64,000 nt of DNA from an uncultured Bdellovibrionales bacterium (GTDB lineage: Bacteria; Patescibacteriota; Minisyncoccia; Moranbacterales; UBA1568). Positions 13,768-38,033 of the stretch are shown here, piece by piece. Position 1 is the first letter of the stretch. Every line of letters begins with the position of its first letter. The notes beneath the pieces were generated by a model. It was not told the origin of the DNA and searched no databases. It saw only the letters and a program-made list of their open reading frames with translations. The stretch covers positions 4,081 to 68,080 of the forward strand of contig CAZCNN010000002.1 in the NCBI GenBank assembly GCA_964500505.1. The letters run 5' to 3'. The position numbers were made by a program, and so were the translations under genes.

Positions 13768-14046
13768 CCATCGGCCAACGCGCCAACAGCCCCCTCGTTT
13801 CACGACGAGCGGGGCTTTTTCTTTGACCAAAATGCTATTTTCTGAAAGAATGAAGAACATTCAAGAAATACTCTATGAGCCTCAAAGTTGGTACAGTATG
13901 GACTCTACCAGACATGATTCGAGTGATAGCTCGGTGAAATCAATCCCGTTTTCTTTCGTGATAAAGCTACCGCCTCCACTACAAAGGGGAGTAGACTATG
14001 GCTTCAAGCCATCAAAAAAGACTCCATAATCTCATTGGGATTTTCT

Positions 14047-14496
14047 ATGTACACATCGGAAGAAATTGACTATGAATTAGACGATACCTGCCTTATCGTT
14101 CCCGAACATGCAAGAACTCCTTTAGTAAAGGCTCTATCTTATCTACCAGAAGAGATTATTGATTTTGTGGTTGAAAATTGTGTCTTTGTTTCTCTAGATA
14201 AGGAAACCAGAGGAATGTACATGACAATCAATGATTTTCGTCTTGAAAGTAAGACGGGTTTCATTTTCTTCCCTGCCGAGCTCTGGTCCAAGGATGAAGA
14301 AGCCATAGCGTTTGTAGTGGCTCATGAGGTCGCTCATGCGTATAAAGGACATGGGTTTAAAAGTTTCGAAGACACGGAGGCTACTATTAATGGCAGCAGA
14401 GAAAAAGATGCGGACAAGCAGGCTATTGAATGGCTGAAGCCACATTTCAAGGGATCATTCGAGAAGTACATCTATAAGGACTGGCAATTGTCATAA
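14047..14496 (+). CDS. small HExxH protein (putative zinc metallopeptidase, ImmA/IrrE-like size)
   Basis: AHEVAHAYKGH motif. The ORF track starts at a TTG at 14035; the first ATG is 14047. Confidence 0.45.
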   Translation: MYTSEEIDYELDDTCLIVPEHARTPLVKALSYLPEEIIDFVVENCVFVSLDKETRGMYMTINDFRLESKTGFIFFPAELWSKDEEAIAFVVAHEVAHAYKGHGFKSFEDTEATINGSREKDADKQAIEWLKPHFKGSFEKYIYKDWQLS

Positions 14497-14603
14497 GATT
14501 TATCTAGGTTCATATAGTGGTGGAGTATAACCGTACCGTCAAAGGTGCGGCTTTATTTTTTGTCCCAAATAGTGTAAAGTTGTGTTAAGTTGGTAACTTT
14601 CAT

Positions 14604-14792
14604 ATGACTGAACAGAAAAAGGACGAAATCATCACTTTGGCCGAAGCCTCTGAAATTCTAGGCTTCCATCCCAATACACTCCGTAAATGGGACAACACGG
14701 GATTCTTGAAGGCAATTCGGTTTGGTAGGAGAGGGGATAGGCGATATCGGAAAAGTGATATTTTGAAGCTTCTTGATCAAAAGATGAAATAA
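14604..14792 (+). CDS. MerR/excisionase-family helix-turn-helix DNA-binding protein
   Basis: 62 aa. LAEASEILGFHPNTLRKWDNTGFL resembles the Xis/MerR-type HTH. Stops 12 nt before the next gene. Confidence 0.55.
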   Translation: MTEQKKDEIITLAEASEILGFHPNTLRKWDNTGFLKAIRFGRRGDRRYRKSDILKLLDQKMK

Positions 14793-14804
14793 GTAAGAAA
14801 ACCT

Positions 14805-16928
14805 ATGGCAAAGATATCTAAGCTGTTGGATGCGATTAAAGACAAGGAGATTGTTGTTCCTGAATTCCAGAGAGAGTATGTATGGAGTTTGGAGCAGGCG
14901 AAAGAGCTCATGGCATCCTTGTTTCAGGAATATCCCACAGGAAGCATTTTGATCTGGGAAACAACGACTCCTCCAGAAATCAAAAATGATGCAGTCAAGA
15001 AAGATAAGATGGGTTGGATCAAAGTACTTCTTGATGGACAGCAGCGTCTGACGACTCTCTATCTCCTCATAAAAGGGGATATACCGCCGTACTACAAAGA
15101 ATCTGAGATCACTCATGATCCACGGCATCTGTTTTTTAATCTGAGAACAGCGGAGTTTAATTACTACCAGAAGCAGAAAATGGAGGAGAGCCCTTTCTGG
15201 AAATCGGTCGTGAGCTGCTTTAATGATAAGTTTGATGCCTTTACTCTGGTCGAAGGCCTGCATGTAGAGGATGCTAGGGAAAAACTGGAAATCGGAAGCA
15301 TTGTAAATAAGAATCTTGTCCGATTGCGGGCAATAGCGGATATCGACTATTTTGAACAGTCGGTTCCGCAGGGGCTAGATATTGATAAGGCCATCGATAT
15401 ATTCGACCGGGTTAACTCGATGGGGACGAAGCTTACGGAAGCGGAACTGGTCCTGACACATGTTGCTGGGAGATGGCCACAAGCTCGCCGGGTCATGAAA
15501 GAGAAAATAGATGCCTATGAGAAAGCCGGGTTCTCCTTTGAGTTGGAATTCCTGACCCGTTGCTTTGTTGTGCTTCTCACGAACTCGGCTCTGTACGAAA
15601 AAATGACAGATGAAATTTATAAGAATACGACGGAGGAAATTTACAAGGAGACATGGGAAAAACTGGTGAAGATACTTGACTATATCATTCCTATTCTCAA
15701 GCAGTCTGCCTATATCAGTGGGAGTCGTGATATGAACACGAATAATGTTCTTGTTCCGCTGATTGCTTATTTGTCCAAGAACGGCGGGATCTTTAGCCCT
15801 GAGCTCAAAAATCAATTTTTGCGCTGGATGTTTCTCGCTCTTATCTGGGGTCGGTACAGCGGTCAGACTGATCAGCGTTTGGATAAGGATGTTTATCTGG
15901 CAATCAGTAGTCCACAGCCGGTGTCGGATCTCATCAATGAGATTGAGGACTTGCGAGGAAGGATAGAAATTAAGCCAGCCGATCTCGAAGGCCGTGGCTC
16001 AAGCCATCCGCTCCACCGTATGCTCTATGTGCTGGCGAAATACAACAAAGCGACAGATTGGGCGAATGGCGGTTCGCTACAAGATACAATGGGTGATTAC
16101 TATAGCATCCAGAGTCACCATGTTTTTCCACAAGCATTTTTGTACAAGAACGGATACGACTCAGAAAATCACTTAGACAAGAAAAAGGTGAATGAGATTG
16201 CCAATCGAGCATTCATTACACGAGATACGAATTTTGATATCTCAGACAAACAGCCTGTCGATTATCTGGAAGAAGTTTCTGCGAAATACCCTGAGGCGCT
16301 TGGTCAACAGTTGATACCGACAGAAAAGTCTTTGTGGGAAGTTGGAAAATACAATGAATTTTTGACTGCCCGAAGAAAAATGATTGCGGATTCGGTTAAT
16401 GCCTTTTTAGATCACCTGAAAGGAGTGGAGACTGAAGAGGTGGTTAATTACGAGGAGGACATCAAGGCGGGAGAGAGCGACTACCTTGAATTCAAGTCCT
16501 CGCTTCGTTGGGATTATGAGCAGGGGACAACGAACAAGCTGATGGAGTATGTTGTTGCTAAGACGATAGCGGCATTCATGAATTCCGAGGGCGGGAAGCT
16601 CTTTATCGGAGTGAATGATGCCGGGAAGGTTCTGGGTATTGAAAAGGATTACGAGACATTGAAAAACAAGAATCGAGACAGTTTCTTGCTCCAGCTGACT
16701 CAGGTGATCAATAATTATCTGGGCAGGGAGTTTAATCAGTATGTTGGAATAAAAATTGATCAGGTGGGTGGTAAAGATATATGCATTGTCGATGTGGCCA
16801 ATAGTGCAATGCCGGTGTATCTGAAAAATAATGACAAGGAAGAGTTTTATATCCGAGCGTCCGCTTCCTCGCAGCCGATGAGTATTAGAGAGGCCAATGA
16901 GTATATTCGAACACGCTGGGAGAGCTAG
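14805..16928 (+). CDS. GmrSD-like type IV restriction/defence protein: DUF262 (ParB-like NTPase) + DUF1524 (His-Me/HNH nuclease) fused to C-terminal AlbA_2/Schlafen-like domain
   Basis: DUF262 motifs PEFQREYVW and DGQQRLTT. DUF1524 motif IQSHHVFPQAF. C-terminal ~150 aa (ESDYLEFKSSL...AFMNSEGGKLFIGVNDAGKVLGI) matches the AlbA_2/Schlafen 'putative DNA-binding' domain. Confidence 0.75.
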   Translation: MAKISKLLDAIKDKEIVVPEFQREYVWSLEQAKELMASLFQEYPTGSILIWETTTPPEIKNDAVKKDKMGWIKVLLDGQQRLTTLYLLIKGDIPPYYKESEITHDPRHLFFNLRTAEFNYYQKQKMEESPFWKSVVSCFNDKFDAFTLVEGLHVEDAREKLEIGSIVNKNLVRLRAIADIDYFEQSVPQGLDIDKAIDIFDRVNSMGTKLTEAELVLTHVAGRWPQARRVMKEKIDAYEKAGFSFELEFLTRCFVVLLTNSALYEKMTDEIYKNTTEEIYKETWEKLVKILDYIIPILKQSAYISGSRDMNTNNVLVPLIAYLSKNGGIFSPELKNQFLRWMFLALIWGRYSGQTDQRLDKDVYLAISSPQPVSDLINEIEDLRGRIEIKPADLEGRGSSHPLHRMLYVLAKYNKATDWANGGSLQDTMGDYYSIQSHHVFPQAFLYKNGYDSENHLDKKKVNEIANRAFITRDTNFDISDKQPVDYLEEVSAKYPEALGQQLIPTEKSLWEVGKYNEFLTARRKMIADSVNAFLDHLKGVETEEVVNYEEDIKAGESDYLEFKSSLRWDYEQGTTNKLMEYVVAKTIAAFMNSEGGKLFIGVNDAGKVLGIEKDYETLKNKNRDSFLLQLTQVINNYLGREFNQYVGIKIDQVGGKDICIVDVANSAMPVYLKNNDKEEFYIRASASSQPMSIREANEYIRTRWES

Positions 16929-16943
16929 CACGAGTGAAATTCC

Positions 16944-18521
16944 TTGAGCAAAAAAGAAATAATTATGGCCACCAAGAAAGTCCAAAGTGAAAAATCGCTC
17001 GAGAAGTGGATCTGGGATGCCGCCTGCGCCATCCGGGGTTCAAAAGATGCCAGCAAATTTAAGGACTATATCCTCCCGCTTATCTTCGTGAAGCGGCTCT
17101 GTGATGTCTTTGATGATGAACTTCGGACCAAGATCAAGGCGGCAACGCTCTCTGATGGGAGGAAAAAAGCCAAGCTCGACAACAGCCGGGTGCGTTTCTA
17201 TATTCCTATCACTCCGAAGAATCCAGAGGACGATACTTGGAGTGCAATCAGGTCGCTCTCAAGCAATATTGGTCAGGAGCTCACTCGGATCATCCGGGAA
17301 GTGGCAGCGAGCAACCCCTTGCTCGATGATGTCATTACGAGGGTGGACTACAATGCGACGACCCGGGGAGAGCGAGAAATTGACGACCATCAGCTCTCCA
17401 ACTTGATCGAAGCAGTGAGCCAGAAGCGGCTCGGTTTGAATGATGTCGATCCGGATATCATCGGGCGAGCGTATGAATACCTCATCCGAAAGTTTGCGGA
17501 GAATTCCGGTAAATCCGGGGGCGAGTTCTTCACTCCGCCAGAAGTCGGACAAATCATGGCTCGGATTATGAACCCGGAGCCAGGGATGCATATCTATGAC
17601 CCGACTTGTGGCTCGGCAGGACTCCTCATCAAGTGCGAGTCGGTGTTGAATGACAGAATGCAGAGTGAGGGGAAAAAGGTGTTTACCCCACTTAGTCTCT
17701 ATGGTCAGGAAAAGGAGACGGACAACTGGGCGATGGCCAAGATGAACATGATAATCCATGACATGGAGGGTGATATAGAGACAGGTGACACCTTCAATAA
17801 TCCGAAATTCAAGGATGCAACAGGGCACGGCGTGCGGAAGTTTGATCGGGCGGTAGCTAATCCGATGTGGAATCAACCTGATTTTCGAGAGGAAGTTTAT
17901 ACCGATGATGCTTACCATCGTTTTCCGGCAGGGAATCCTGGCGGTAAAGCGGACTGGGGCTGGGTGCAGCATATCTTCTCAAGTCTAAAAGACGATGGTC
18001 GGGCGGCTGTGGTTCTCGATACGGGTGCTGTTTCTCGGGGAAGTGGAAGTGCTAATACTGACAAAGAGAAAGAGGTTCGGAAATGGTTTATTGAGCACGA
18101 CTTGATCGAGGGTGTTTTATATCTACCAGAGAACTTGTTTTACAACACAACTGCGCCGGGGATCATTCTCTTTCTGAACAAGCAGAAACCCGAAAAGCTC
18201 AAAGACAAGTTACTCCTCATTAATGCCAGTCATGAATTCGAGAAGGGCAATCCAAAGAATTACATTAGCTCGGAGCAGGCACAGAAGATCGCTGATGCTT
18301 TCAATGCAAAAAAAGTGGTAGAGAATTTCAGTGTGTTCGTTTCGAAGTCGGACATAGTGAAAAATGACTACAACATTTCGCCGTCGAGGTATATCCATCT
18401 CGGCGGAGTAGAGGAGTATGTGCCAGTGGAAGATATCTTGAGTGATCTAGTCGAAGTTGAGACTAAGGCAAAAGAAGTGGATAAGAATCTCCAAAAGGTG
18501 CTAAAAGAGCTTGGATTCTAG
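16944..18521 (+). CDS. hsdM: type I restriction-modification system methyltransferase subunit (HsdM, N6-adenine MTase)
   Basis: HsdM N-terminal domain. SAM motif I DPTCGSAGLL. Catalytic motif NPMW (an NPPF variant). The ORF-track start is non-ATG; the first ATG is +21 nt (16965). Confidence 0.9.
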   Translation: MSKKEIIMATKKVQSEKSLEKWIWDAACAIRGSKDASKFKDYILPLIFVKRLCDVFDDELRTKIKAATLSDGRKKAKLDNSRVRFYIPITPKNPEDDTWSAIRSLSSNIGQELTRIIREVAASNPLLDDVITRVDYNATTRGEREIDDHQLSNLIEAVSQKRLGLNDVDPDIIGRAYEYLIRKFAENSGKSGGEFFTPPEVGQIMARIMNPEPGMHIYDPTCGSAGLLIKCESVLNDRMQSEGKKVFTPLSLYGQEKETDNWAMAKMNMIIHDMEGDIETGDTFNNPKFKDATGHGVRKFDRAVANPMWNQPDFREEVYTDDAYHRFPAGNPGGKADWGWVQHIFSSLKDDGRAAVVLDTGAVSRGSGSANTDKEKEVRKWFIEHDLIEGVLYLPENLFYNTTAPGIILFLNKQKPEKLKDKLLLINASHEFEKGNPKNYISSEQAQKIADAFNAKKVVENFSVFVSKSDIVKNDYNISPSRYIHLGGVEEYVPVEDILSDLVEVETKAKEVDKNLQKVLKELGF

Positions 18522-19725
18522 TATGGCAACACGAGTCTCTACAAAGGAATGGAGAAAAACAAGATTGGTAGATGCTTGTGATTTGAACATGGGCCAATCT
18601 CCAGATTCAAAAACATACAATAACACTGGCGAGGGACTACCATTTTTTCAAGGGAAAACAGACTTCGGTCGAAGGCATCCGAGTGTTCGAATATATTGCA
18701 GTGACCCGAAAAAAGTCGTTGATGTGGGCGACATCTTAATTTCTGTACGTGCACCTGTAGGGCCAGTAAACATTGCAGATGCAAAAAGTTGTATTGGCAG
18801 AGGTCTTGCCGGGTTAAGGTCCAAGAATGAAGTACTGGATCAAGATTTTCTGTATTTTGAACTTTTGTTGAACGAAAAAAGCATTGCCTCTCTTGGTTCC
18901 GGAAGTACTTTCCATGCAATCAACAAATCACAATTGGCGGATCTCGAGTTTGATCTCCCGTCATTACCAGAACAAAAGGCCATTGCACGAGTGCTGACAA
19001 CTGTGCAGGATGCGATTGCTGAGCAGGAAAATCTCATTGCAAAGCTCAAGGAGTTGAAGCGGAGCATGATGCAGCATCTGTTTACTCACGGCACTCAAGG
19101 CGAAGTGACCAAAATGACTGAGATAGGGGAGATTCCAGAGAGTTGGGCAATCGAGAAGTTGGGCGATATCTGCGAGACAAGTAGCGGTGGTACTCCGAGT
19201 AGGACTAAAAAGGAATACTACTCAGGACATATCCTATGGGTAAAGTCTGGTGAAATGAACGATGGCTATATTTCTGATTCGGAGGAGAAAATAACTAGAG
19301 AGGCAGTAGAAAATTCATCGGCGAAATTGTTTGAGTCGGGTACTTTATTGATAGCAATGTATGGGGCAACCGCTGGAAAAACAGCAATTATTAGCCGGGA
19401 GGCAACGACGAATCAGGCTGTTTGTGGAATTTTTAAGAACAGTAGGGTAGATCTTGAATTTATTCGTTACGCCTTGATTTTGAGAAGAGGGTTTCTATTG
19501 GATCAGCGGCATGGTGGTGCTCAGCCGAACTTGAGCCAGACTAGTATTAGAAATCTCTACATACCATTACCAAAAATTGAGGAGCAGGAAAAAATCTCCA
19601 ACAGTCTCATTGCAATAGAGAAGAAGATCGTGTCGACACGGGTCAAGCTGGCGTCGTATCAAAGCCTTTTTAAAACACTACTTCATGAGTTGATGAGTGG
19701 AGAAGTGAGAATAAAAAATATATGA
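18511..19725 (+). CDS. hsdS: type I restriction-modification system specificity subunit (HsdS)
   Basis: Two target-recognition domains separated by the conserved central helix LPSLPEQKAIARVLTTVQDAIAEQENLIAKLKELKRSMMQHLFTHG, with a similar C-terminal conserved region. Overlaps hsdM by 11 nt. Confidence 0.85.
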   Translation: MDSSMATRVSTKEWRKTRLVDACDLNMGQSPDSKTYNNTGEGLPFFQGKTDFGRRHPSVRIYCSDPKKVVDVGDILISVRAPVGPVNIADAKSCIGRGLAGLRSKNEVLDQDFLYFELLLNEKSIASLGSGSTFHAINKSQLADLEFDLPSLPEQKAIARVLTTVQDAIAEQENLIAKLKELKRSMMQHLFTHGTQGEVTKMTEIGEIPESWAIEKLGDICETSSGGTPSRTKKEYYSGHILWVKSGEMNDGYISDSEEKITREAVENSSAKLFESGTLLIAMYGATAGKTAIISREATTNQAVCGIFKNSRVDLEFIRYALILRRGFLLDQRHGGAQPNLSQTSIRNLYIPLPKIEEQEKISNSLIAIEKKIVSTRVKLASYQSLFKTLLHELMSGEVRIKNI

Positions 19726-22601
19726 TCAATCCATACCTAAAAGGATCAATATGGCGAAAATGGGACCTGCAAACGCAGACCATTTTGGACGATAGCTATA
19801 TCTCTCTTTCCGAATATAGTGCTGAAATAAAGAAGACGAACCTTGCTGAGTGGCAACGGTATGTTGCCAAAGTTGGAGGCGAAGCCAACGCACTGCTCTA
19901 TGACTCAAAAGCATATTTTAATGACACGAGGATCGCAAAGAGTGATAGATGCGTAAATTATGTAAGGAATTACTTCGCTTTTCTCGAAGTGTTCAACCCT
20001 GATTTGGAGTGTGTGGGAATCACAGATCACAATTATTTTGACGACACCTTACTGGATACTTTCATTGAGTATTCACAACAATCAAAGTGTAGAATCATAC
20101 CGGGGGTAGAGATCAACTGTCAGGGTATTCACATGCTTCTGTTCTTTCCAAACAAGTTATATGGAAAGTCGACCTTCTCAGCTGGCATCCATGCATTTTT
20201 AATGAAGTTTAATATTGATAATCGAACGACTGATGCTGGAGTTCTCACTACTACATCACGAGACATCAAAGAGATTCTTGATGAGGTGAAAAAGAATGGT
20301 GGCATCGTTATATACCCTCACTGCAATAGCAGTAATGGACTCTTTCAAGAAAGAACAGCTAGTGATCGTACATATCTTGCGGACATTTTTAACCATCAGA
20401 AGGTGAACCTCCTGCAATCACAACACAACCAGTCGTCTGTGATATTGAGTGATTACATAAAAACAAATGCATCACTGACTGCAAAGTTCTGTTCGCATAT
20501 CAGCTCTGACGCCCGATCTCTGCGGGACTATGGACGCAGTGATCAAGACAATAACTTTTTATGGATTAAAGCGGATCCAACTTTTGAGGGATTGCGACAG
20601 ATTATTTATGAGCCAGAGCAACGCATCTTTGTTGGCCCACAGAAACCGGAAGAAAAGAAGTCATACTTCGTGATCGATAAGGTTCGCTTCATTGATAACT
20701 CTAGTGATGCAAAATTCACTAGTGATCAAATAGAGGTCAATCAGAATCTGACCACAATCATTGGTGGCAAATCGACTGGTAAATCGCTTCTGCTCTACTA
20801 CATGGCAAAAACGATTGATGGTCAGGAGGTCAAAAATAGGACAACTGATGCAGGCGTATCAATCAAGTATGACTTCGATACATCACCAGACTTCAACTTT
20901 GAGGTACTGTGGAAAGATGGTCAAAAGACACTATTGAAAGTGCCAGAAGGAACAAACGAAGAGGGGTCGAAAGAGCGTAAAATACTATACATACCGCAAA
21001 AGTATCTCAATACTCTCTCTGAAGCAAACATAGCAAGCCGTGAAGCTCTCAACGAGTTTGTTTTGGGCGTCATACTACAAGATGCAACTATTAGGGAAAA
21101 ATATGATGAAACTCTTCAAGAAATAAAAACCAAGACTAAGTCTGTGCCGAATGAGATCAATGAGCTTTTTTCTGACTTGGCGGATATCAAGAAAACTGAG
21201 GAGGAGCTGAAGCAGGCTGGTGATGAGAAAGGTATTGAGAGTTACATAGAGACTCTTCAAAAACGGGCAGACGACATCAAGGCGAAGTCTGGATTGACCG
21301 AGGATCAGATTAATCAATTCGAGGAATTGGTAACAAAGGAAAAAGAGATAAGTACACAGATCTCGAATCTTGAAGAAGACAAGAAAACCATAAAGAACCT
21401 CAATGTCAGTCTAGCTTCTCAAGTAGAAGGCCTTCGTACCACGACCGAAGAGTATGAGGCATACCTCAATGACGCTGACATCAAAACGAAATTTAAAACA
21501 GAGCTGAAAATCATTGACTCTTTTGTGCCAAATATTAAAACTGGTACAACAAATCTCATTACGGTTATAGATGCAAGAATTAAAGTTCACAACTTGGAGT
21601 TGGTAACAATCAAGGCAGGACTTGTACCATTACTGGCGAAAGTGCAAATGCAGACAGAGTTACAGGCACAAACAGATGCAATTAAAAAGGAACAGCAGAA
21701 GTTGAACGAGATAGCACTCAAAGCAAACAATCTCAAGACCAAGAAGGCCTCCTACAAAAAGAAGGCGGACGGAGTCATGGATTCATATAGCCAAATCATT
21801 GCGAAGTACGAGGGCTTAAGGAATGAGTTCAAGAAGTTTGAAAGCAAGTTTGGAGACATAACACTTGGAGTCCATGTCAGTTTTAATGACGATGCTTTTA
21901 ATGCAGAAGTGGTCAAGGAATATATCAACAAAAACGACCTAAAACGAGTGATAGTAGAGGCCGAGTGGGGCGATGAGTTTGTGTATCAATACGATCCGGT
22001 TAAACACTCGGCAAATATTACGACCGTATTCGAAGGTCTTATTGGTGGCACGATCAACACAGTCAAGAATCGTCAGCCCAAAGATGCGGTGGCGAAATTA
22101 CTAGAGAATTACTTCTTTCTCGATTTCCATATCTTCTACAAAAACGACTCGCTAGACAAGATGTCGCCCGGCAAAAAAGGATTGGTACTACTTCAGTTGC
22201 TAATAAACTTGAGCGATGAGGAGTGGCCTATTCTACTTGATCAACCAGAGGATGATCTTGATAACCGCTCGGTATACGACGACCTTGTGGACTTCCTAAA
22301 AAAGAAGAAGTTACAGAGGCAAATAATCATTGTTACCCATAATCCAAACCTTGTTGTTGGCGCTGACGCAGAAGAAACTATCGTTGCAAATCAATCAGGA
22401 CAAGAGGTGGGCAGAGAGAATAAGAAGTTTCGTTTTGAATATGTTACCGGAGCTCTAGAGAATACGTTTGAGGTTGATGTGACAGTCGAGCCAGCAATCC
22501 TGTACCGTAAAGGCATTCGCCAGCATGTTTGTGAGATACTCGAGGGTGGTAAAGAAGCGTTTCAAAAGCGTGAGCAAAAGTATAGTTTTCCACAAGAATA
22601 A
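19722..22601 (+). CDS. PHP-family phosphoesterase domain fused to SMC/Rad50/RecN-like ABC ATPase with long coiled coil (putative defence effector embedded in the type I R-M operon)
   Basis: N-terminal ~300 aa carry PHP-like metal-ligand blocks (GITDHNYFDD, PGVEIN, IHMLLF, IVIYPHC). Walker A IIGGKSTGKS at ~aa 345. About 450 aa of K/E-rich heptad-like sequence follow. Then the ABC signature MSPGKKGLVLLQLL, Walker B ILLDQPEDDLD and H-loop IIIVTHNP. Starts with ATGA overlapping the hsdS stop and ends 8 nt before hsdR. Confidence 0.6.
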   Translation: MINPYLKGSIWRKWDLQTQTILDDSYISLSEYSAEIKKTNLAEWQRYVAKVGGEANALLYDSKAYFNDTRIAKSDRCVNYVRNYFAFLEVFNPDLECVGITDHNYFDDTLLDTFIEYSQQSKCRIIPGVEINCQGIHMLLFFPNKLYGKSTFSAGIHAFLMKFNIDNRTTDAGVLTTTSRDIKEILDEVKKNGGIVIYPHCNSSNGLFQERTASDRTYLADIFNHQKVNLLQSQHNQSSVILSDYIKTNASLTAKFCSHISSDARSLRDYGRSDQDNNFLWIKADPTFEGLRQIIYEPEQRIFVGPQKPEEKKSYFVIDKVRFIDNSSDAKFTSDQIEVNQNLTTIIGGKSTGKSLLLYYMAKTIDGQEVKNRTTDAGVSIKYDFDTSPDFNFEVLWKDGQKTLLKVPEGTNEEGSKERKILYIPQKYLNTLSEANIASREALNEFVLGVILQDATIREKYDETLQEIKTKTKSVPNEINELFSDLADIKKTEEELKQAGDEKGIESYIETLQKRADDIKAKSGLTEDQINQFEELVTKEKEISTQISNLEEDKKTIKNLNVSLASQVEGLRTTTEEYEAYLNDADIKTKFKTELKIIDSFVPNIKTGTTNLITVIDARIKVHNLELVTIKAGLVPLLAKVQMQTELQAQTDAIKKEQQKLNEIALKANNLKTKKASYKKKADGVMDSYSQIIAKYEGLRNEFKKFESKFGDITLGVHVSFNDDAFNAEVVKEYINKNDLKRVIVEAEWGDEFVYQYDPVKHSANITTVFEGLIGGTINTVKNRQPKDAVAKLLENYFFLDFHIFYKNDSLDKMSPGKKGLVLLQLLINLSDEEWPILLDQPEDDLDNRSVYDDLVDFLKKKKLQRQIIIVTHNPNLVVGADAEETIVANQSGQEVGRENKKFRFEYVTGALENTFEVDVTVEPAILYRKGIRQHVCEILEGGKEAFQKREQKYSFPQE

Positions 22602-22609
22602 GTAATCCT

Positions 22610-25486
22610 ATGAAACCATCCGAAGCAAAATCAGTACAAGAGCGAATTATTAAGTATGCGGTCGAGTCCGGGTGGGCACTGGTTTCTCGTGCCGAAAGCG
22701 ACGCCCGCCGTGGTGATGAAATGGTATACAATGGCCAGCCCTACTATTCGGATGTGCTGATGCCAAAACTGCGAGAATTCAACCCATGGCTCCCGGCAGA
22801 CTATAGTGTTCCGACACCGGTCTCAAAGATAGAAGGAAATCGGCAGATACTACTCGCTCTCCGCGGACAGAGTACAGCCTATGATGAGGCAGAAAAACGA
22901 GAGCGCAATGTGAAAGTGATCGATTTTAAGCGCCTGGAGCGCAATGTCTATGAAGTAACGAGCGAGTTTGCTTTCTCGAATGGCCGATACAGTAATCGGC
23001 AGGATATCGTTTTCATGATCAATGGAGTGCCGATTATCGATCTGGAATGCAAGAACCTGACCACAGCGGAAGGGATTGATAAGGCACTGGATCAGATACG
23101 AAGGTATCATCGTGAGACGCCAGAGCTCTTGGTCCTTGAGCAGGGCTATGTTGCTAGTGAGGGGATGCGGCTTGAGTATGGCGTGACTTGGAATACGGTG
23201 AGGCGCAATATCTTCAAGTGGAATGGCGATAAGGTAGGGGAGCTCGAGAACAAGATTAAGACTTTTTTCGATATCAAGCACATTCTCAATTTGGTGGAGA
23301 AATATATCATGTTCATCGAGAAGGATGAAGAATTGACCAAGCTCGTCCTACGGGAGCATCAGGCGAATGCGGTGGAGGCGGTGTTGACCCGGGCATTGAA
23401 AGAAGATGCAACGAGAGGATTGGTCTGGCATACACAGGGCTCAGGGAAGACTTTTACCATGATCAAGACAGCCGAGCTCTTGTTCAAGAGTGATGAGGCA
23501 GACAAGCCGACGGTCATCATGATGCTCGATAGGAATGAGCTCGAGGGACAGATGGAGGGGAATTTGATGGCTGCCGGACTCTCGAATGTCCGAAAGGCGC
23601 TGAGTATTACGGACCTGGTAGAAATACTCCGTTCAGACTATCGGGGTATCGTCATTACCATGATCCATAAATTCCGTGGATTGCCGGCCGATTTGAACAC
23701 CCGAAAGAATATCTTTGTCTTGATTGATGAGGCGCATCGTTCAACTGGGAGCGACCTTGGGACATTTGTAATGGCAGCTATGCCGAATGCGACCTTTGTT
23801 GGGTATACCGGAACGCCGATTGATAAAGCGCAGTACGGCAAGGGGACATTCAAGACTTTTGGAGTGGATGATGCCAAAGGGTATCTGCATAAATACAGTA
23901 TTAGTGAGAGTATCGCTGACGGCACAACATTACCGCTCTACTATAGCTTGGCACCCAATGAGATGCTTGTACCCAAAGAAACGCTTGAAAGGGAGTTTCT
24001 AAACCTCGCCGAGGAGCATGGAGTGACGGATATCGAAGAGTTGAATGCAATTCTCGAGCGAGCGGTGAATACCCGGAACTTTCTCAAGGGTGCCGGACGC
24101 ATCGAAAAGGTAGGTAAGTTTATCGCTGAACACTTCAAGGAATATATCGAGCCGATGAACTATAAGGCATTTGTCGTCGCTGTCGATCGTGAAGCGTGTG
24201 CCTTGTACAAAAAGGAACTAGACAAGTATCTGCCGAAGGCATGGAGCGAGGTGGTCTACACGAGCAATAATAACGATACCGAACTCTTGAAGGAGTTTGA
24301 CCATGATGAGGAGATCGAGAAGAAGATCCGGCGAGACTTCGCCCGATTTGGCGGCACGCCAAAAATCCTTATCGTGACTGAAAAGCTCCTGACGGGTTAT
24401 GATGCACCGATCCTGTACTGCATGTATCTGGATAAGCCGATGCGTGACCATGCATTGCTCCAGACTATCGCTCGAGTGAATCGTCCGTATGAGAATGAAG
24501 AGATGAAAATGATGAAGCCTCACGGTTTTGTGCTCGACTTTGTGGGAATATTCGACAAGCTCGAAAAAGCGCTGTCGTTTGATAGTGATGAAGTGAATGC
24601 CATCGTCAAAGACTTGTCGCTTTTGAAAGAGCGGTTTGTGAAGAAACTAACTGAAGAGGCAAAGCCGTATTCGGATCTCCTTGTTGGTCCGTTTGATGAC
24701 CGGCTCGCAGGGGTCTTGATTGAGCATTTCCGGGATGAAGAAGTGAGGAAAGCATTCTTCAAACTCTACAACGAGATTGAGATGTTCTATGAGATCATTT
24801 CTCCGGATGCGTTCTTACGACCCTATGTGGATCAGTACATGACTCTTTCAAGCGCCTATCAAGTGGTACGAAATGCCTATGCCGACCATGTCTCTATCGA
24901 CCGAGAGTTTCAAAAGAAGACAGCGGCACTGGTGCAGGAACATATTCAGAGTAGTCCGATCAAATTGGGTACGGAGATAGTCCGACTTGATGAGAAGGGG
25001 ATCGCACTGATCAAAGAAAAGAATCAGCCGGATGAGGTGAAGATTATCAACCTGATCAAGAGTATTCAGCGATTGGCTGAGGAGAAGTCCAATGACCCAG
25101 TGCTCATTTCGGTCAAAGAGCGGGCTGAGGATATCTTGGATGCGTACTCAAGCCGACAGATGACCACGCAGGAAGCCTTGAAACAGTTGCTTGCTTTGGC
25201 TGAAGGCGAGGCGGAGCGGAGTGCGGAACAGGAGAAAGAGGGTATTTCTTCGGTAGCTTGGTTTATCCGGGATTTACTGGCGGAGAGCAAGATTATCGAT
25301 ATGCAAGTGGTAAAAGAGCTTGAAACGATAATCGGGCAGTATCCAGAGTTTGCCAAGAGCGAGAAGCTGACTCGTGATCTTCGAAATCATATCTATAGAG
25401 GTCTTGGCGCACTTGATCTTACTCCCACGGAGGAGAAAAGAATAACTGATCAGTTGCTCGAGACTCTCGTGCGAACAAGTCTATGA
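22610..25486 (+). CDS. hsdR: type I restriction enzyme endonuclease/helicase subunit (HsdR)
   Basis: SF2 helicase motifs HTQGSGKTFTM (I) and DEAHRS (II). N-terminal nuclease domain and the characteristic ~950-aa length. Confidence 0.9.
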   Translation: MKPSEAKSVQERIIKYAVESGWALVSRAESDARRGDEMVYNGQPYYSDVLMPKLREFNPWLPADYSVPTPVSKIEGNRQILLALRGQSTAYDEAEKRERNVKVIDFKRLERNVYEVTSEFAFSNGRYSNRQDIVFMINGVPIIDLECKNLTTAEGIDKALDQIRRYHRETPELLVLEQGYVASEGMRLEYGVTWNTVRRNIFKWNGDKVGELENKIKTFFDIKHILNLVEKYIMFIEKDEELTKLVLREHQANAVEAVLTRALKEDATRGLVWHTQGSGKTFTMIKTAELLFKSDEADKPTVIMMLDRNELEGQMEGNLMAAGLSNVRKALSITDLVEILRSDYRGIVITMIHKFRGLPADLNTRKNIFVLIDEAHRSTGSDLGTFVMAAMPNATFVGYTGTPIDKAQYGKGTFKTFGVDDAKGYLHKYSISESIADGTTLPLYYSLAPNEMLVPKETLEREFLNLAEEHGVTDIEELNAILERAVNTRNFLKGAGRIEKVGKFIAEHFKEYIEPMNYKAFVVAVDREACALYKKELDKYLPKAWSEVVYTSNNNDTELLKEFDHDEEIEKKIRRDFARFGGTPKILIVTEKLLTGYDAPILYCMYLDKPMRDHALLQTIARVNRPYENEEMKMMKPHGFVLDFVGIFDKLEKALSFDSDEVNAIVKDLSLLKERFVKKLTEEAKPYSDLLVGPFDDRLAGVLIEHFRDEEVRKAFFKLYNEIEMFYEIISPDAFLRPYVDQYMTLSSAYQVVRNAYADHVSIDREFQKKTAALVQEHIQSSPIKLGTEIVRLDEKGIALIKEKNQPDEVKIINLIKSIQRLAEEKSNDPVLISVKERAEDILDAYSSRQMTTQEALKQLLALAEGEAERSAEQEKEGISSVAWFIRDLLAESKIIDMQVVKELETIIGQYPEFAKSEKLTRDLRNHIYRGLGALDLTPTEEKRITDQLLETLVRTSL

Positions 25487-25812
25487 AAAGAAAAACAGTA
25501 AAAACATGGGAGTCGAAGAAGGAATTTAAGGAGGAGGTATATCTGTGCGCCAATAAAATCAAAGTGAAACTGAAGCAGGTGACACTCCGGCTGATGACTC
25601 GAAAGTGGGCGAGCTGTTCGACTAATGGCTATTTTACTTTCAACACCGAACTCTTGGGTATGGATCGTTCGCTGGGTGAGTATGTGATCATGCATGAGCT
25701 CCTTCATTACCATGTCCCGAACCATGGAAAGCTTTGGAAGAGTCTAATGATGGTACATATGCCGGACCATGAGAAGAGGGCACAGAAGCTGAAAGTCATG
25801 CATAGTAGATAG
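25483..25812 (+). CDS. DUF45/YgjP/WLM-type zinc metallohydrolase commonly linked to type I R-M hsdR
   Basis: HELLHYHVPNHGKLW is the HExxH...H motif of the M48/YgjP family. Start overlaps the hsdR stop by 4 nt. Confidence 0.7.
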   Translation: MKRKTVKTWESKKEFKEEVYLCANKIKVKLKQVTLRLMTRKWASCSTNGYFTFNTELLGMDRSLGEYVIMHELLHYHVPNHGKLWKSLMMVHMPDHEKRAQKLKVMHSR

Positions 25813-29334: not shown

Positions 29335-29340
29335 ATTATC

Positions 29341-30384: not shown

Positions 30385-30449
30385 GTAACTTTGAAATAAG
30401 CGTGTTAAAACAAAAACATTTTTGACTCCTCTTTTGTTTTGATACGCTT

Positions 30450-36180: not shown

Positions 36181-36378
36181 ATGATAGATAATATGAAACT
36201 CCTTACGAGACAAGAAGTCGCAGCGCTGTTGCGAGTTGATCCTCGAACTGTTGAGCGATGGCTCCGAAGTGGGAAACTGAAGGGCTATAAGCTCGGTGAT
36301 GGTAAAACCGCTCCGTGGCGAATTGATGAAGCAGAGGTACAAAGGTTTCTGGAGAAAAATAATGGAAGAGACCTATGA
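36181..36378 (+). CDS. excisionase/MerR-type HTH protein (putative recombination directionality factor)
   Basis: LTRQEVAALLRVDPRTVERWLRSGKLKGYKLG matches the Xis-type HTH. Immediately upstream of, and overlapping by 4 nt, the large serine recombinase gene. Confidence 0.6.
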   Translation: MIDNMKLLTRQEVAALLRVDPRTVERWLRSGKLKGYKLGDGKTAPWRIDEAEVQRFLEKNNGRDL

Positions 36379-38033
36379 AAGAAAGGGTCCAAAAAGAAGG
36401 TAAATTGGTTGCCGTCTACGGTAGAGTCTCAACTTCAAATCAGGAGAATGAGAAGACCATTGAGACGCAGCTTTTGGCTGTCCACGAACTTGCCGAAAAA
36501 GAAAATTACACTATTGTGCAAGAATATCTTGATGAGGGTTGGAGCGGAGATAATCTCGCAAGACCAGGCCTCGATCAACTTCGCATCGATGCAAAGAAGA
36601 AGAATTGGGAAGCCGTATTGATTTATGACCCAGATAGATTGGCTCGGCGGGGAGCGTGGCAAGAAGTAGTGATGGAGGAGTTAAAAGAACTAGAGATCGA
36701 TGTTCTTTTTGTCACTATTCCAAAACCAAAAACCGACGAGGATGTCATCATGTATAAAATGAGAGGTGTGTTCGCTGAATATGAAAGAATGAAAATAGCG
36801 GAGCGTTTTCGGCTCGGAAAGAAGCGGAAAGTAGAAGAGGGACATGTTCTTACCACGGAAGCTCCTTATGGTTATCGCTACATCCGAAATGACAAGGATA
36901 AAAAGCAGCATGGATATTATGAGATCGTTGAAGAAGAAGCAAGAGTGGTGAGGATGATGTTCACTTGGATTGGTGAACATGGCTTCACTATTCGGCAAGT
37001 AGTTCGGAAGTTGCAGGAGCTCGGTATCAAACCGAAGAGGAGCAAGCGAGGAGTGTGGAATACGAGCACATTGTCTACATCGCTTCGCAATAAGACCTAT
37101 ATCGGAGAGGCTCACTACGGGAGTACTTATGCAGTAGTGCCCAAAAATCCCCAAAGCAAAGAAAAGTTTCGCAAAGTAAAAAAGAGTAGCCGAAAGAATA
37201 GACCAGAGGAGGAGTGGATAGCATCGAAAATCCCTGTACCGGCAATTATCGATAAGCCACTTTTTGCGAAAGTGCGCGCCCAATTAGAGGCGAATTTTGC
37301 TCTGTGTCAGCGTAATGCGAAGAACGAGTATTTGCTTGGAAGCAAAATATTCTGCTCTTGTGGTACAAAACGGAATGGTGAGGGTCCCCAACATGGCAAG
37401 CACCTGTATTACCGCTGTAGCAATCGGGTGTATAGTTTTCCGTTGCCTCGCACATGCCATGAAGGTGGGATTAATGCGAGAATTACTGATCGGTTGGTAT
37501 GGGAAGGAATCGACAGACTGCTGACTTCTCCGGATTTGTTACTGGCACAGATAGATCAGTGGAAGAAGAATCAAAAACATGAATCTCAGTCCGTCTTTGG
37601 GGATATTGAGGTAATAAAGAAGGAAATAGCAAAACTGAAAACGCAACAGGACCGATATAATAGAGCATACGGAGCCGAAGTCCTGACGTTAGAGCAGTTG
37701 AAGGGGTACACTGCATCCATAAGGAGTGATATTGCAGCGCTTGAGTCACAGATAAGAATGGCGGAACAGCAAGAGGGTCAGTCGAAGGTTGGTCGTGAGC
37801 CAACAAGGGAGGAGATAGAGGCCTTGGCAGAAAGAGCGACAAAAAATCTCAGGGACTTGAATTTTAACGGAAAAAGAGGGATAGTAAGAGACATTGTAGA
37901 AAAAGTCATTGGTACCCAATTGCAGGTAGAAGTATCCGGAGCTATTCCTTTAACGACACTAAACTATGTCGAGTACAAAACTGAAAGTCGGAATCGTAGG
38001 ACTGCCAAACGTCGGGAAATCGACGCTGTTTAA
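36375..38033 (+). CDS. large serine recombinase (phage-type serine integrase)
   Basis: N-terminal catalytic domain (LVAVYGRVSTSNQ...LIYDPDRLARR), recombinase domain, Cys-rich zinc ribbon (CSCG...YYRC) and coiled-coil region. 3' end overlaps the ychF start by 68 nt. Confidence 0.85.
   Translation: MKERVQKEGKLVAVYGRVSTSNQENEKTIETQLLAVHELAEKENYTIVQEYLDEGWSGDNLARPGLDQLRIDAKKKNWEAVLIYDPDRLARRGAWQEVVMEELKELEIDVLFVTIPKPKTDEDVIMYKMRGVFAEYERMKIAERFRLGKKRKVEEGHVLTTEAPYGYRYIRNDKDKKQHGYYEIVEEEARVVRMMFTWIGEHGFTIRQVVRKLQELGIKPKRSKRGVWNTSTLSTSLRNKTYIGEAHYGSTYAVVPKNPQSKEKFRKVKKSSRKNRPEEEWIASKIPVPAIIDKPLFAKVRAQLEANFALCQRNAKNEYLLGSKIFCSCGTKRNGEGPQHGKHLYYRCSNRVYSFPLPRTCHEGGINARITDRLVWEGIDRLLTSPDLLLAQIDQWKKNQKHESQSVFGDIEVIKKEIAKLKTQQDRYNRAYGAEVLTLEQLKGYTASIRSDIAALESQIRMAEQQEGQSKVGREPTREEIEALAERATKNLRDLNFNGKRGIVRDIVEKVIGTQLQVEVSGAIPLTTLNYVEYKTESRNRRTAKRREIDAV

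What the first reader, a model, noticed from the sequence alone, without database searches (positions are those of the whole stretch)
14604..16928. GmrSD-type (DUF262-DUF1524) protein fused to a C-terminal AlbA_2/Schlafen-like domain, preceded by a small Xis/MerR-like HTH gene
DUF262 (DGQQRLTT) + DUF1524 (SHHVFPQAF) is the GmrSD/BrxU/SspE type IV restriction architecture. The extra ~150-aa tail (ESDYLEFKSSL...GGKLFIGVNDAGKVLGI) resembles the AlbA_2 'divergent AAA/Schlafen' DNA-binding module, an unusual three-domain arrangement. The 62-aa HTH gene 12 nt upstream may be a dedicated regulator.
Basis: partly seen in the sequence, partly recalled or inferred. Interest (0 to 1): 0.6.

Follow-up and report, generated by a model that had tools for sequence, protein, structure and literature searches.

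The report
BrxU-like restriction protein fused to Schlafen
This is an intact anti-phage gene that joins a BrxU/GmrSD-type DNA restriction module to a Schlafen-type RNA-cutting domain; the architecture is already described and widespread, so it is a new example of a known kind, and the small gene in front of it is a general operon leader, not its own regulator.

Summary
A 62-aa HTH gene (14604-14792) lies 12 nt before an intact 707-aa ORF (14805-16928). That ORF has a DUF262/GmrSD_N domain (E=8e-31) and a Schlafen/AlbA_2 domain (E=5e-20). Between them is a divergent DUF1524-type HNH region. Pfam does not detect it directly; motif, the BrxU-family profile and transitive homology support it.

The arrangement is not unusual. 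More than 120 protein clusters and at least 42 genome loci across bacterial and archaeal phyla share it. GmrSD proteins with C-terminal AlbA_2 were noted in 2017. "DUF262-Slfn" is a named class of prokaryotic Schlafens (Nat Microbiol 2026), and an E. coli member cut T7 plating about 500-fold.

The Schlafen motif E-x4-E-x-K is kept in 43/43 members. The tail is therefore probably an RNase effector and not just a DNA-binding module. The HNH site has decayed in 6/43.

The HTH is not a dedicated regulator. It is absent beside every other homologue, and its close relatives head unrelated defence operons. A sister contig has the same type I R-M operon with HTH abutting hsdM, so the GmrSD-Slfn gene is a separable cassette. 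The host is a Moranbacteria-like CPR bacterium, and the locus sits on a ~24-kb serine-recombinase island.

Verdict: new member of a known kind, modest interest.

The parts
14531..14550 (+). Terminator-like hairpin plus T-run that closes the upstream peptidase-like gene. It marks the start of the HTH-led transcription unit.
   Evidence: 7-bp stem, 5 GC pairs, CTTTATTTTT tail. The hairpin is conserved in L090 and L093.
14551..14603 (+). Conserved leader/promoter region upstream of the HTH gene (…TTGTCC.AAATAGTGTAAAGTTGTGTTAAGTTGGTAA…ATG). It contains a candidate operator, AGTTGGTAAC.
   Evidence: aligned across five otherwise different operons. GTGTAAA and TAAGT are invariant.
14604..14792 (+). 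62-aa HTH_17/MerR-like ('excisionase family') DNA-binding protein. It is a portable leader gene of defence operons, weakly similar to mad1.
   Evidence: HTH_17 5.5e-11; mad1 1.7e-7; TIGR01764 below cutoff. Searches give the contexts of its relatives.
14805..16928 (+). 707-aa GmrSD/BrxU-like protein fused to a Schlafen domain (DUF262-Slfn class).
14814..15461 (+). DUF262/GmrSD_N ParB-like NTPase domain (res 4-219). Motifs: FQR (21-23), S38 and DGQQR (77-81).
   Evidence: DGQQR is kept in 43/43 and S38 in 42/43 members. Aligns to BrxU res 8-363.
15462..15989 (+). Alpha-helical linker region (res 220-395), as in BrxU/GmrSD.
   Evidence: AF2 model helices 225-394. BrxU alignment.
15990..16424 (+). 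Divergent DUF1524-type His-Me (HNH) nuclease region (res 396-540). Motif: S-H438-H439-V-F-P … N463-E464 … N467 … N476.
   Evidence: HEC-05 profile spans it. The family consensus is (D/H)-H-I-F-P, compared with BrxU DHIYP. 34% identity (E=5e-29) to L059, whose aligned stretch passes the Pfam GmrSD_C cutoff. A Nostoc homologue is annotated DUF1524. Direct Pfam, PDB-profile and isolated-domain tests were negative.
16473..16883 (+). Schlafen/AlbA_2 domain (res 557-693) with catalytic-type E557-x4-E562-x-K564 and D605.
   Evidence: E=5e-20. Aligns to the SLFN11 'ESQSIEFK … GVDD' segment. Foldseek matches 3lmm, the SAMD9 tRNase domain and SLFN5/11/12/13/14. Motif kept in 43/43.
16935..16962 (+). Degenerate relic of the HTH gene's 3' end, just before hsdM. 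It is the right-hand junction of the inserted GmrSD-Slfn cassette.
   Evidence: Its best match in the whole window is 14764-14792 (10/1000 shuffles reach the score). Peptide relic KFLEQK vs KLLDQK. L090 has this sequence once, at a direct HTH-hsdM junction.
16944..18521 (+). Type I R-M methyltransferase HsdM. The true start may be the ATG at 16965.
18511..19725 (+). Type I specificity subunit HsdS.
19722..22601 (+). TrlF-family AAA-like ATPase embedded between hsdS and hsdR. This is a variable cargo slot.
   Evidence: NF045780, 7e-144. The slot holds other genes in L001 and L090.
22610..25486 (+). Type I restriction subunit HsdR.
   Evidence: TIGR00348, 3e-136.
25483..25812 (+). YgjP-like metallopeptidase-domain protein, a common companion of HsdR.
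   Evidence: 6.5e-23.
36375..38033 (+). Large serine recombinase at the right end of the ~24-kb low-GC island (about 13.8-38.0 kb) that carries the locus.
   Evidence: The flanking ychF is a host gene.

Best explanation
The 707-aa gene encodes a self-contained, single-polypeptide anti-phage protein of the DUF262-Schlafen class. Its first ~540 residues form a BrxU/GmrSD-like module: a ParB-like NTPase (DGQQR), a helical linker and a divergent HNH nuclease. The last ~160 residues are a Schlafen (AlbA_2) nuclease domain. The most likely mechanism is as follows. As in BrxU, the protein rests as an intertwined dimer. NTP binding and hydrolysis in DUF262 drive a dimer/monomer cycle that is coupled to recognition of invading DNA. 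On activation the HNH site cuts DNA and the Schlafen site cuts tRNA or other RNA, which shuts down translation. Dimerisation would pair two single AlbA_2 lobes, mimicking the two-lobed eukaryotic Schlafen core. What is shown here: the domains, the catalytic motifs and their conservation, the defence-island and mobile-element context, and the separability of the gene. What is inferred: the NTP-gated cycle, the triggers, the substrates and the coupling of the two nucleases. In this genome the gene sits as a separable cassette between a portable HTH leader gene and hsdM of a type I R-M operon, on a serine-recombinase island of a Moranbacteria-like CPR bacterium. The HTH most likely controls the operon promoter.
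For: Domains. Structure: AF2 pLDDT 85. Foldseek gives BrxU E=5.5e-14 over 612 columns, SspE 1e-5, and AlbA_2/SAMD9-tRNase/SLFN hits for the tail. Conservation in 43 members at 32-80% identity: DGQQR 43/43, E-x4-E-x-K 43/43, D605 42/43, HNH His 37/43. Published function: DUF262-Slfn is 1.8% of 5,930 pSlfns, EcoSlfn7 reduces T7 EOP ~538-fold, and another pSlfn is a phage-activated tRNase (PMC13056530). BrxU mechanism and motifs: PMC8565348. Autonomy: homologues stand alone in defence islands or beside other R-M types. Only ~1/5 of 86 loci have type I R-M-like genes within 8 kb. Cassette: L090 has the same operon (HsdM 87%, HsdR 96%) without the gene, and the window keeps a junction relic. HTH as generic leader.
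Against: There is no experiment on this protein or on any CPR homologue. The HNH region is not recognised by Pfam in this protein. The PDB profile search and the isolated-domain fold search were negative. The long Foldseek alignment to BrxU has a low TM-score (0.35-0.42), and its E-value may be driven by the N-terminal half. The sequence of EcoSlfn7 could not be obtained, so orthology to the tested protein is unproven. Six family members have lost the HNH catalytic His, so DNA cleavage is not essential to the family as a whole. The direction of the cassette event (insertion here, or deletion in L090) is not resolved.
Confidence: 0.6

Rival explanations
1. Sensor-effector reading: the whole GmrSD-like part only senses infection and regulates, its HNH contributes nothing, and the Schlafen RNase is the sole effector. 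This is the general model proposed for prokaryotic Schlafens.
For: The Schlafen motif is kept in 43/43 members. The HNH site has decayed (H->Y, N476->P/D/E, E464->A) in 6/43. The authors' model treats fused domains as sensors. EcoSlfn7 acts best on T7, whose DNA is unmodified, which is unlike a classical type IV enzyme.
Against: In this protein and in 37/43 members the (D/H)-H-I-F-P…N…N pattern is intact. H438, N463 and N467 are invariant, and H439 and N476 at least 90% conserved, in the closer 35-member set. That argues for selection on catalysis.
Confidence: 0.2
2. One reading: a classical modification-dependent type IV restriction enzyme whose AlbA_2 tail is only an extra, non-catalytic nucleic-acid-binding module.
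For: The AlbA superfamily domains bind DNA/RNA, and the 2017 His-Me finger survey described the AlbA_2 tail of GmrSD proteins this way. The SAMD9 AlbA_2 domain was crystallised with DNA (7ksp). BrxU and GmrSD cut modified DNA.
Against: The complete Schlafen catalytic signature E-x4-E-x-K plus D605 is invariant across 32-80% identity. The same domain is a proven tRNase in SLFN11/13, SAMD9 and a bacterial pSlfn. The tail is retained where the HNH has decayed.
Confidence: 0.12
3. R-M-dependent back-up effector, on the PrrC/EcoprrI model: the protein is held latent by the neighbouring type I R-M complex and fires when a phage inhibits it.
For: It is co-transcribed at the head of the hsdM-hsdS-hsdR operon, with 12-36-nt gaps and no terminator. 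About 20% of family loci have type I R-M-like genes nearby. A tRNase effector embedded in a type I R-M has a precedent in PrrC, cited in PMC13056530.
Against: Most homologues have no type I R-M-like gene within 8 kb, or sit beside other systems. The same R-M backbone exists without the gene (L090). The identical protein persists while HsdS and the embedded cargo change (L001).
Confidence: 0.08

Closest known systems
EcoSlfn7 / 'DUF262-Slfn' class of prokaryotic Schlafens (Perez Taboada et al., Nat Microbiol 2026, PMC13056530)
   Same: Same Pfam composition used to define the class (PF03235 + PF04326). Same E-x4-(E/D)-x-K motif. Located in a defence island.
   Different: That paper does not mention an HNH/DUF1524 region or a GmrSD relationship and gives no mechanism for this class. 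The present gene is from a CPR bacterium and sits at the head of a type I R-M operon.
BrxU (E. fergusonii pEFER; PDB 7p9k) = PADLOC HEC-05, a GmrSD-family type IV restriction enzyme
   Same: DUF262 with DGQQR and the dimer-switch serine (S38 here, S42 in BrxU). Helical linker. HNH motif (HHVFP here, DHIYP in BrxU). It is the best profile, sequence and fold match.
   Different: Only ~18% identity in the structural alignment. The R of RLFDS is not kept (E34). The HNH domain is too divergent for Pfam. There is an extra 160-aa Schlafen domain that BrxU lacks.
GmrSD proteins with C-terminal AlbA_2 noted in the His-Me finger survey (Jablonska et al., NAR 2017, PMC5714182, Group 3)
   Same: The same three-domain architecture is described there.
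   Different: In that survey the tail was treated as a DNA/RNA-binding module, and no catalytic role or defence test was proposed.
Eukaryotic Schlafens (SLFN11/12/13/14) and the SAMD9 tRNase domain
   Same: AlbA_2 fold and the catalytic E…E.K…D signature. The nuclease is fused to a nucleic-acid- or NTP-sensing module.
   Different: Eukaryotic SLFN cores have two AlbA_2-like lobes in one chain plus a helicase. Here a single lobe is fused to a ParB-like NTPase/HNH module.
SspE (PDB 6jiv/7drr) and HEC-06
   Same: DUF262-linker-DUF1524 organisation with NTPase-coupled nuclease.
   Different: Much weaker similarity (PADLOC E~1e-4 to 1e-8, N-terminus only). No association with phosphorothioate (Ssp) genes here.

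Membership tests
GmrSD/BrxU family (type IV restriction enzymes) | N-terminal DUF262 (ParB/Srx-like) domain with the DGQQR NTP-hydrolysis motif | tested here: met
   PF03235 E=8.3e-31. DGQQR at res 77-81, kept in 43/43 family members. Aligns to BrxU res 8-363.
GmrSD/BrxU family (type IV restriction enzymes) | Nucleotide-binding/dimer-switch motif RLFDS (BrxU R38, S42) | tested here: inconclusive
   The aligned segment is ELMAS. The serine is conserved (S38, 42/43), but the arginine is replaced by E34.
GmrSD/BrxU family (type IV restriction enzymes) | C-terminal DUF1524 domain detected directly (Pfam PF07510 at or above threshold) | tested here: not met
   No hit at E<=1 for this protein. Only 4/35 close relatives give weak hits, best E=0.0013. 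The region profile vs PDB and the isolated-domain model vs PDB were both negative.
GmrSD/BrxU family (type IV restriction enzymes) | His-Me/HNH nuclease motif (D/E/H)-H-I-x-P followed by conserved Asn residues, homologous to DUF1524 | tested here: met
   S-H438-H439-V-F-P…N463…N467…N476. The family consensus is (D/H)-H-I-F-P, compared with BrxU DHIYP. The HEC-05 (BrxU) profile is matched in one stretch over res 3-536. Res 385-538 are 34% identical (E=5e-29) to L059, whose stretch 394-485 passes the PF07510 cutoff at 28 vs 23 bits. A Nostoc homologue fragment is annotated DUF1524.
GmrSD/BrxU family (type IV restriction enzymes) | NTP-dependent cleavage of modified (5mC/5hmC/glucosyl-hmC) DNA | not testable with these tools
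   Needs biochemistry. EcoSlfn7's strongest effect was on T7, which has unmodified DNA, so modification dependence should not be assumed.
Prokaryotic Schlafen, DUF262-Slfn composition (PMC13056530) | Schlafen nuclease domain PF04326 | tested here: met
   E=5e-20, 72.6 bits vs cutoff 25.3, profile 1-118/118. Kept in 35/35 relatives.
Prokaryotic Schlafen, DUF262-Slfn composition (PMC13056530) | Catalytic E-x4-(E/D)-x-K motif | tested here: met
   E557-SDYL-E562-F-K564, kept in 43/43 members. Aligns to the SLFN11 ESQSIEFK segment.
Prokaryotic Schlafen, DUF262-Slfn composition (PMC13056530) | Fusion partner is a Pfam DUF262 domain (the paper's classification criterion) | tested here: met
Prokaryotic Schlafen, DUF262-Slfn composition (PMC13056530) | Orthology to the tested protein EcoSlfn7, anti-phage activity, and tRNA cleavage | not testable with these tools
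   Supplementary tables are not held. There was no E. coli match with a gammaproteobacterial probe and no full-length fusion on E. coli plasmids.
Type I restriction-modification operon (the neighbours) | HsdM, HsdS and HsdR encoded together | tested here: met
   MTase_I 2e-153, Specificity_I 2.5e-74, REase_I 1.4e-85, TIGR00348 3e-136.
MADS (methylation-associated defence system) | Mandatory MAD6, MAD7 and MAD8 proteins (MacSyFinder model in bioRxiv 10.1101/2023.03.30.534895) | tested here: not met
   Only mad1-, mad2- and mad5-like hits were found, all weaker than the type I R-M models. No mad6-8 hit appears among the operon proteins. Those accessory components are described as homologous to R-M parts and widespread regulators.
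   The HTH is found only in the near-identical contigs L001-L003 and in 0 of 86 other loci. No comparable HTH gene was called immediately upstream. Its relatives head other operons.

The most novel reading that the evidence does not exclude
The protein is a two-nuclease immune enzyme in which a BrxU-like, NTP-gated DNA sensor licenses a Schlafen tRNase. That would be a prokaryotic counterpart of SLFN11, where DNA sensing triggers tRNA cleavage. The HNH DNase would be an optional second effector that some lineages have already discarded. It would also be one of the interchangeable cargoes that CPR bacteria plug in behind a portable HTH/promoter leader on serine-recombinase elements.
Probability: 0.35. 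Interest if true: 0.55.

Novelty: new member of a known kind. Interest (0 to 1): 0.3.

Why it matters
The gene itself is not a discovery. The architecture was catalogued in 2017 and an E. coli member of the class was shown to defend against phages in 2026. Three points add modest value. First, the 'DUF262' partner of this Schlafen class is a complete BrxU-like module with a cryptic HNH nuclease that Pfam misses, so these proteins probably carry two nucleases. Second, conservation is asymmetric: the Schlafen site is always kept and the HNH site is lost in a subclade, which gives a testable hierarchy of effectors. Third, the locus shows clearly how defence genes are swapped in and out of one type I R-M backbone in CPR bacteria, behind a conserved HTH leader module. 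The mechanism of the DUF262-Slfn class is still open, so mutational dissection would be informative. E. coli EcoSlfn7 is a more practical model for that work than this uncultured-organism gene.

Tried and rejected
1. A direct Pfam/NCBIfam hit for DUF1524 in the window protein: none.
2. A profile of the HNH region alone against PDB sequences: only chance-level carboxypeptidase hits, E>=0.13.
3. AF2 of the isolated HNH region (pLDDT 74, beta-hairpin not formed), then Foldseek: nothing below E=2.7. This is inconclusive, not negative evidence.
5. Obtaining the EcoSlfn7 sequence: no supplements are held, blastn of a gammaproteobacterial homologue against E. coli genomes gave no match, and no E. coli plasmid carries the full fusion.
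6. Phage-borne copies: only partial, tail-less or tail-only matches at 22-30% identity.
7. MADS membership suggested by the mad1/mad2/mad5 hits: rejected, since mad6-8 are absent and HsdR is bona fide.
8. The HTH as excisionase/RDF of the island: not excluded, but not favoured. It scores below the TIGR01764 cutoff. It lies 21 kb from the recombinase here. In every context seen it is the first gene of a co-oriented defence-type operon.
9. A sigma-70 promoter scan of the region: no more sites than in shuffles.
10. A first literature query on 'mad1' returned only mitotic-checkpoint papers.
Full report
1. OBSERVATION

A 62-aa ORF lies at 14604..14792, followed by a 12-nt gap and an uninterrupted 707-aa ORF at 14805..16928, all on the + strand. 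Every quoted peptide motif is present.

Pfam assigns two domains to the large protein. GmrSD_N (DUF262) covers residues 4-219 at E=8.3e-31. SLFN_AlbA_2 covers residues 557-693 at E=5e-20, across the whole 118-position profile. The small protein matches HTH_17 (5.5e-11) and MerR_1 (4.9e-9).

The ORF is not a frameshift artefact. More than 100 database clusters are colinear over 99-100% of the query and are 703-720 aa long.

The one weak spot is DUF1524. Pfam GmrSD_C does not hit this protein even at E<=1.

2. WHAT THE PROTEIN IS

The best defence-system model is PADLOC HEC-05 (E=6.6e-49). It matches in a single stretch from residue 3 to 536, against profile positions 27-594 of 600. HEC-05 is the BrxU family (bioRxiv 10.1101/2024.01.29.577857).

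The best solved structure by sequence is BrxU 7p9k. The E-value is 1e-11 with the single sequence and 1.7e-20 with a 35-sequence profile, but those alignments cover only residues 3-327.

An AlphaFold model built on 35 homologues is confident (mean pLDDT 85). Foldseek ranks BrxU first (E=5.5e-14, 612 aligned columns, TM 0.35-0.42) and SspE next (1e-5). For the tail it finds AlbA_2 proteins: 3lmm, the SAMD9 DNA-binding/tRNase domain, and SLFN5/11/12/13/14.

2a. The nuclease region (residues ~396-540)

The family consensus is (D/H)-H-I-F-P … N/Q-E … N … N. This is directly comparable to BrxU's DHIYP HNH motif, whose D474, H475, N485 and N519 were probed by mutagenesis (PMC8565348).

Residues 385-538 are 34% identical (E=5e-29) to a tail-less relative, L059. 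The aligned stretch of L059 passes Pfam's GmrSD_C cutoff at 28 vs 23 bits. A Nostoc plasmid homologue of the same region is annotated "DUF1524 domain-containing protein".

Against this, a profile of the region alone finds nothing in PDB. An isolated-domain model was poor and matched nothing.

I conclude that the region is a divergent DUF1524-type His-Me finger. This is established by motif and transitive homology, not by a direct hit.

2b. The tail

E557-SDYL-E562-F-K564 is the Schlafen catalytic motif E-x4-E-x-K (PMC13056530). It aligns to the ESQSIEFK segment of SLFN11, and D605 aligns to the GVDD segment.

3. CONSERVATION

I aligned 43 full-length members taken from species-representative genomes, at 32-80% identity to the window (median 38%).

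| Site | Conservation |
|---|---|
| DGQQR | 43/43 |
| S38 | 42/43 |
| E557, E562, K564 | 43/43 |
| D605 | 42/43 |
| HNH catalytic His (H439) | 37/43 |

Six members replace the catalytic His with Tyr: L021, L037, L046, L050, L051 and L052. Most of them have also lost N476 and E464, yet their Schlafen motif is intact.

So the Schlafen site is the universally maintained centre, and the HNH is dispensable in one subclade. In the window protein both sites are intact.

4. HOW COMMON IT IS, AND WHAT IS PUBLISHED

All but one of the top 120 clusters of the homologue search carry PF03235 plus PF04326; the exception is a truncated 534-aa protein. They come from Patescibacteria, Dehalococcoidales, Deltaproteobacteria, Omnitrophota, Nitrospina, KSB1 and others.

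A scan of GTDB species representatives returned at least 42 full-length loci in many bacterial and archaeal phyla. It also returned tail-less relatives matching residues 1-538 at 30-34% identity. Haloarchaeal and Sinorhizobium replicons carry the full fusion at 36-41% identity.

The literature already covers the architecture:
- Jablonska et al. [quoted passage not shown]
- Perez Taboada et al. 2026 list DUF262 fusions as 1.8% of 5,930 prokaryotic Schlafens.
- The same paper shows that the E. coli DUF262-Slfn protein EcoSlfn7 lowers plating of a broad range of phages, T7 by ~538-fold (PMC13056530).
- That paper demonstrates phage-triggered tRNA cleavage for a different Schlafen fusion and gives no mechanism for the DUF262 class. 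It never mentions HNH, DUF1524 or GmrSD. Its Pfam-based classification would not see the cryptic HNH region.

5. CONTEXT AND THE HTH GENE

5a. The operon. Downstream follow HsdM, HsdS, a TrlF-family ATPase, HsdR and a YgjP-like protein. The gaps are 12-36 nt and there is no terminator. A terminator-like hairpin lies just upstream of the HTH.

5b. The island and host. The block from ~13.8 to 38.0 kb has low GC. It ends with a large serine recombinase next to the host ychF. The host is a Moranbacteria/Moraniibacteriota-like CPR bacterium from wastewater, because the flanking RNase J is 83% identical to named MAG proteins.

5c. The HTH is not a partner of the fusion gene.
- tblastn finds it only in the near-identical contigs L001-L003 and in none of 86 other family loci.
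- Distant homologues stand alone in defence islands (AbiEii, HipA, DarTG, Fic) or follow an SNF2/MTase/ResIII system.
- About one fifth of the loci (17 of 86) have type I R-M-like genes within 8 kb.

5d. What the HTH's own relatives do. HTH proteins at 78-85% identity are always the first gene of a co-oriented defence-type operon, and in three of the four contexts a large serine recombinase gene lies nearby:
- HsdM-HsdS-SMODS-SLATT-HsdR (L090)
- SNF2 + DUF2779 (L091)
- a 1,588-aa helicase + WYL protein (L093)
- a type ISP-like R-M (L095)

The ~60 nt upstream of the start codon is conserved across all five operons. In MADS, the weakly similar mad1 had limited effect on defence when deleted and is described as a widespread regulator.

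5e. The cassette. L090 carries the same R-M backbone (HsdM 87%, HsdR 96%), with the HTH stop codon 2 nt from the hsdM start. In the window, the 28 nt before hsdM (16935-16962) are a degenerate copy of the HTH 3' end. This is the best match anywhere in the window. Ten of 1000 shuffles score as high. The peptide relic is KFLEQK vs KLLDQK.

The GmrSD-Slfn gene is therefore a separable cassette lying between the leader and hsdM. Whether it was inserted here or deleted in L090 is not resolved.

The hsdS-hsdR slot of the same backbone is also variable. It holds TrlF here and in L002, an AAA_13 protein in L001, and SMODS+SLATT_4 in L090.

6. MECHANISM

Shown:
- three modules with intact catalytic signatures
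- strong conservation of the NTPase and Schlafen sites
- genetic autonomy of the gene
- defence-island and mobile-element context

Inferred from BrxU (PMC8565348) and from Schlafen biology (PMC13056530):
- an NTP-driven dimer/monomer cycle coupled to recognition of foreign DNA
- DNA cleavage by the HNH site
- tRNA/RNA cleavage by the Schlafen domain
- dimerisation supplying the two-lobed Schlafen arrangement

I put about 0.85 on "anti-phage protein of the DUF262-Slfn class" and about 0.45 on "both nucleases are active and coupled".

Rivals:
- Schlafen-only effector, with the GmrSD part as sensor (0.2)
- an R-M-dependent PrrC-like back-up (0.08)

7. VERDICT

The architecture is known and common, and a member of the class has been tested experimentally. 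The gene is a new member of a known kind.

The added points are modest and remain predictions:
- a cryptic HNH region in the "DUF262" partner
- asymmetric conservation of the two nuclease sites
- cassette insertion behind a portable HTH leader in CPR elements

Interest: 0.3.

Noticed in passing
window 19722-22601; L001 14966-17134; L090 7517-8968: The slot between hsdS and hsdR of one and the same type I R-M backbone (HsdR 95-96% identical) holds different cargo in sister contigs. It is a TrlF-family ATPase here, a 722-aa AAA_13 protein in L001, and SMODS + SLATT_4 (CBASS-like) in L090. HsdS also differs (35-36% identity).
   Followed up: partly
window 14551-14603 (and L090, L091, L093, L095 upstream of their HTH genes): About 60 nt upstream of the HTH start codon is conserved across five unrelated operons. 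The motif AGTTGGTAAC recurs a second time further upstream in L091 and L095. This may be the promoter/operator of a portable leader module.
   Followed up: partly
L021, L037, L046, L050, L051, L052 (family members in other genomes): A subset of the fusion family has lost the HNH catalytic His (H->Y), and most of these have also lost N476 and E464. All keep the Schlafen E-x4-E-x-K motif intact.
   Followed up: partly
window 14035-14496: A 153-aa gene with an HExxH motif (AHEVAH) gives weak hits to Peptidase_U49/Lit, M48 and SprT-like families. It sits immediately upstream of the HTH leader and is conserved in L001-L003. It may be another defence or anti-defence gene.
   Followed up: no
window ~13820-38033: A ~24-kb low-GC island (0.36-0.48, against 0.51-0.58 in the flanks) lies between a 441-aa hypothetical gene and ychF. 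It ends with a large serine recombinase (36375-38033) and also carries an HTH_36 protein (34029-35021). The att sites were not determined.
   Followed up: partly
window 28102-31808: The lowest-GC part of the island (0.36-0.39) encodes two family-2 glycosyltransferases flanking a weak metallophosphoesterase-like protein. This is possibly a surface- or DNA-modification cargo.
   Followed up: no
window 15600-15647: A tandem 24-nt duplication inside the helical-linker coding region encodes KMTDEIYK / NTTEEIYK.
   Followed up: no
window 39109-45294: A 2,061-aa protein with fn3, laminin-G/ConA-like and Ig-like domains. It is a giant surface protein of the kind typical of CPR bacteria.
   Followed up: no
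window 16944 vs 16965: The hsdM start is ambiguous. The mechanical ORF starts at TTG 16944 (525 aa), inside the HTH-relic sequence. Gene calls in the near-identical contig L002 use the ATG equivalent to 16965 (518 aa).
   Followed up: no
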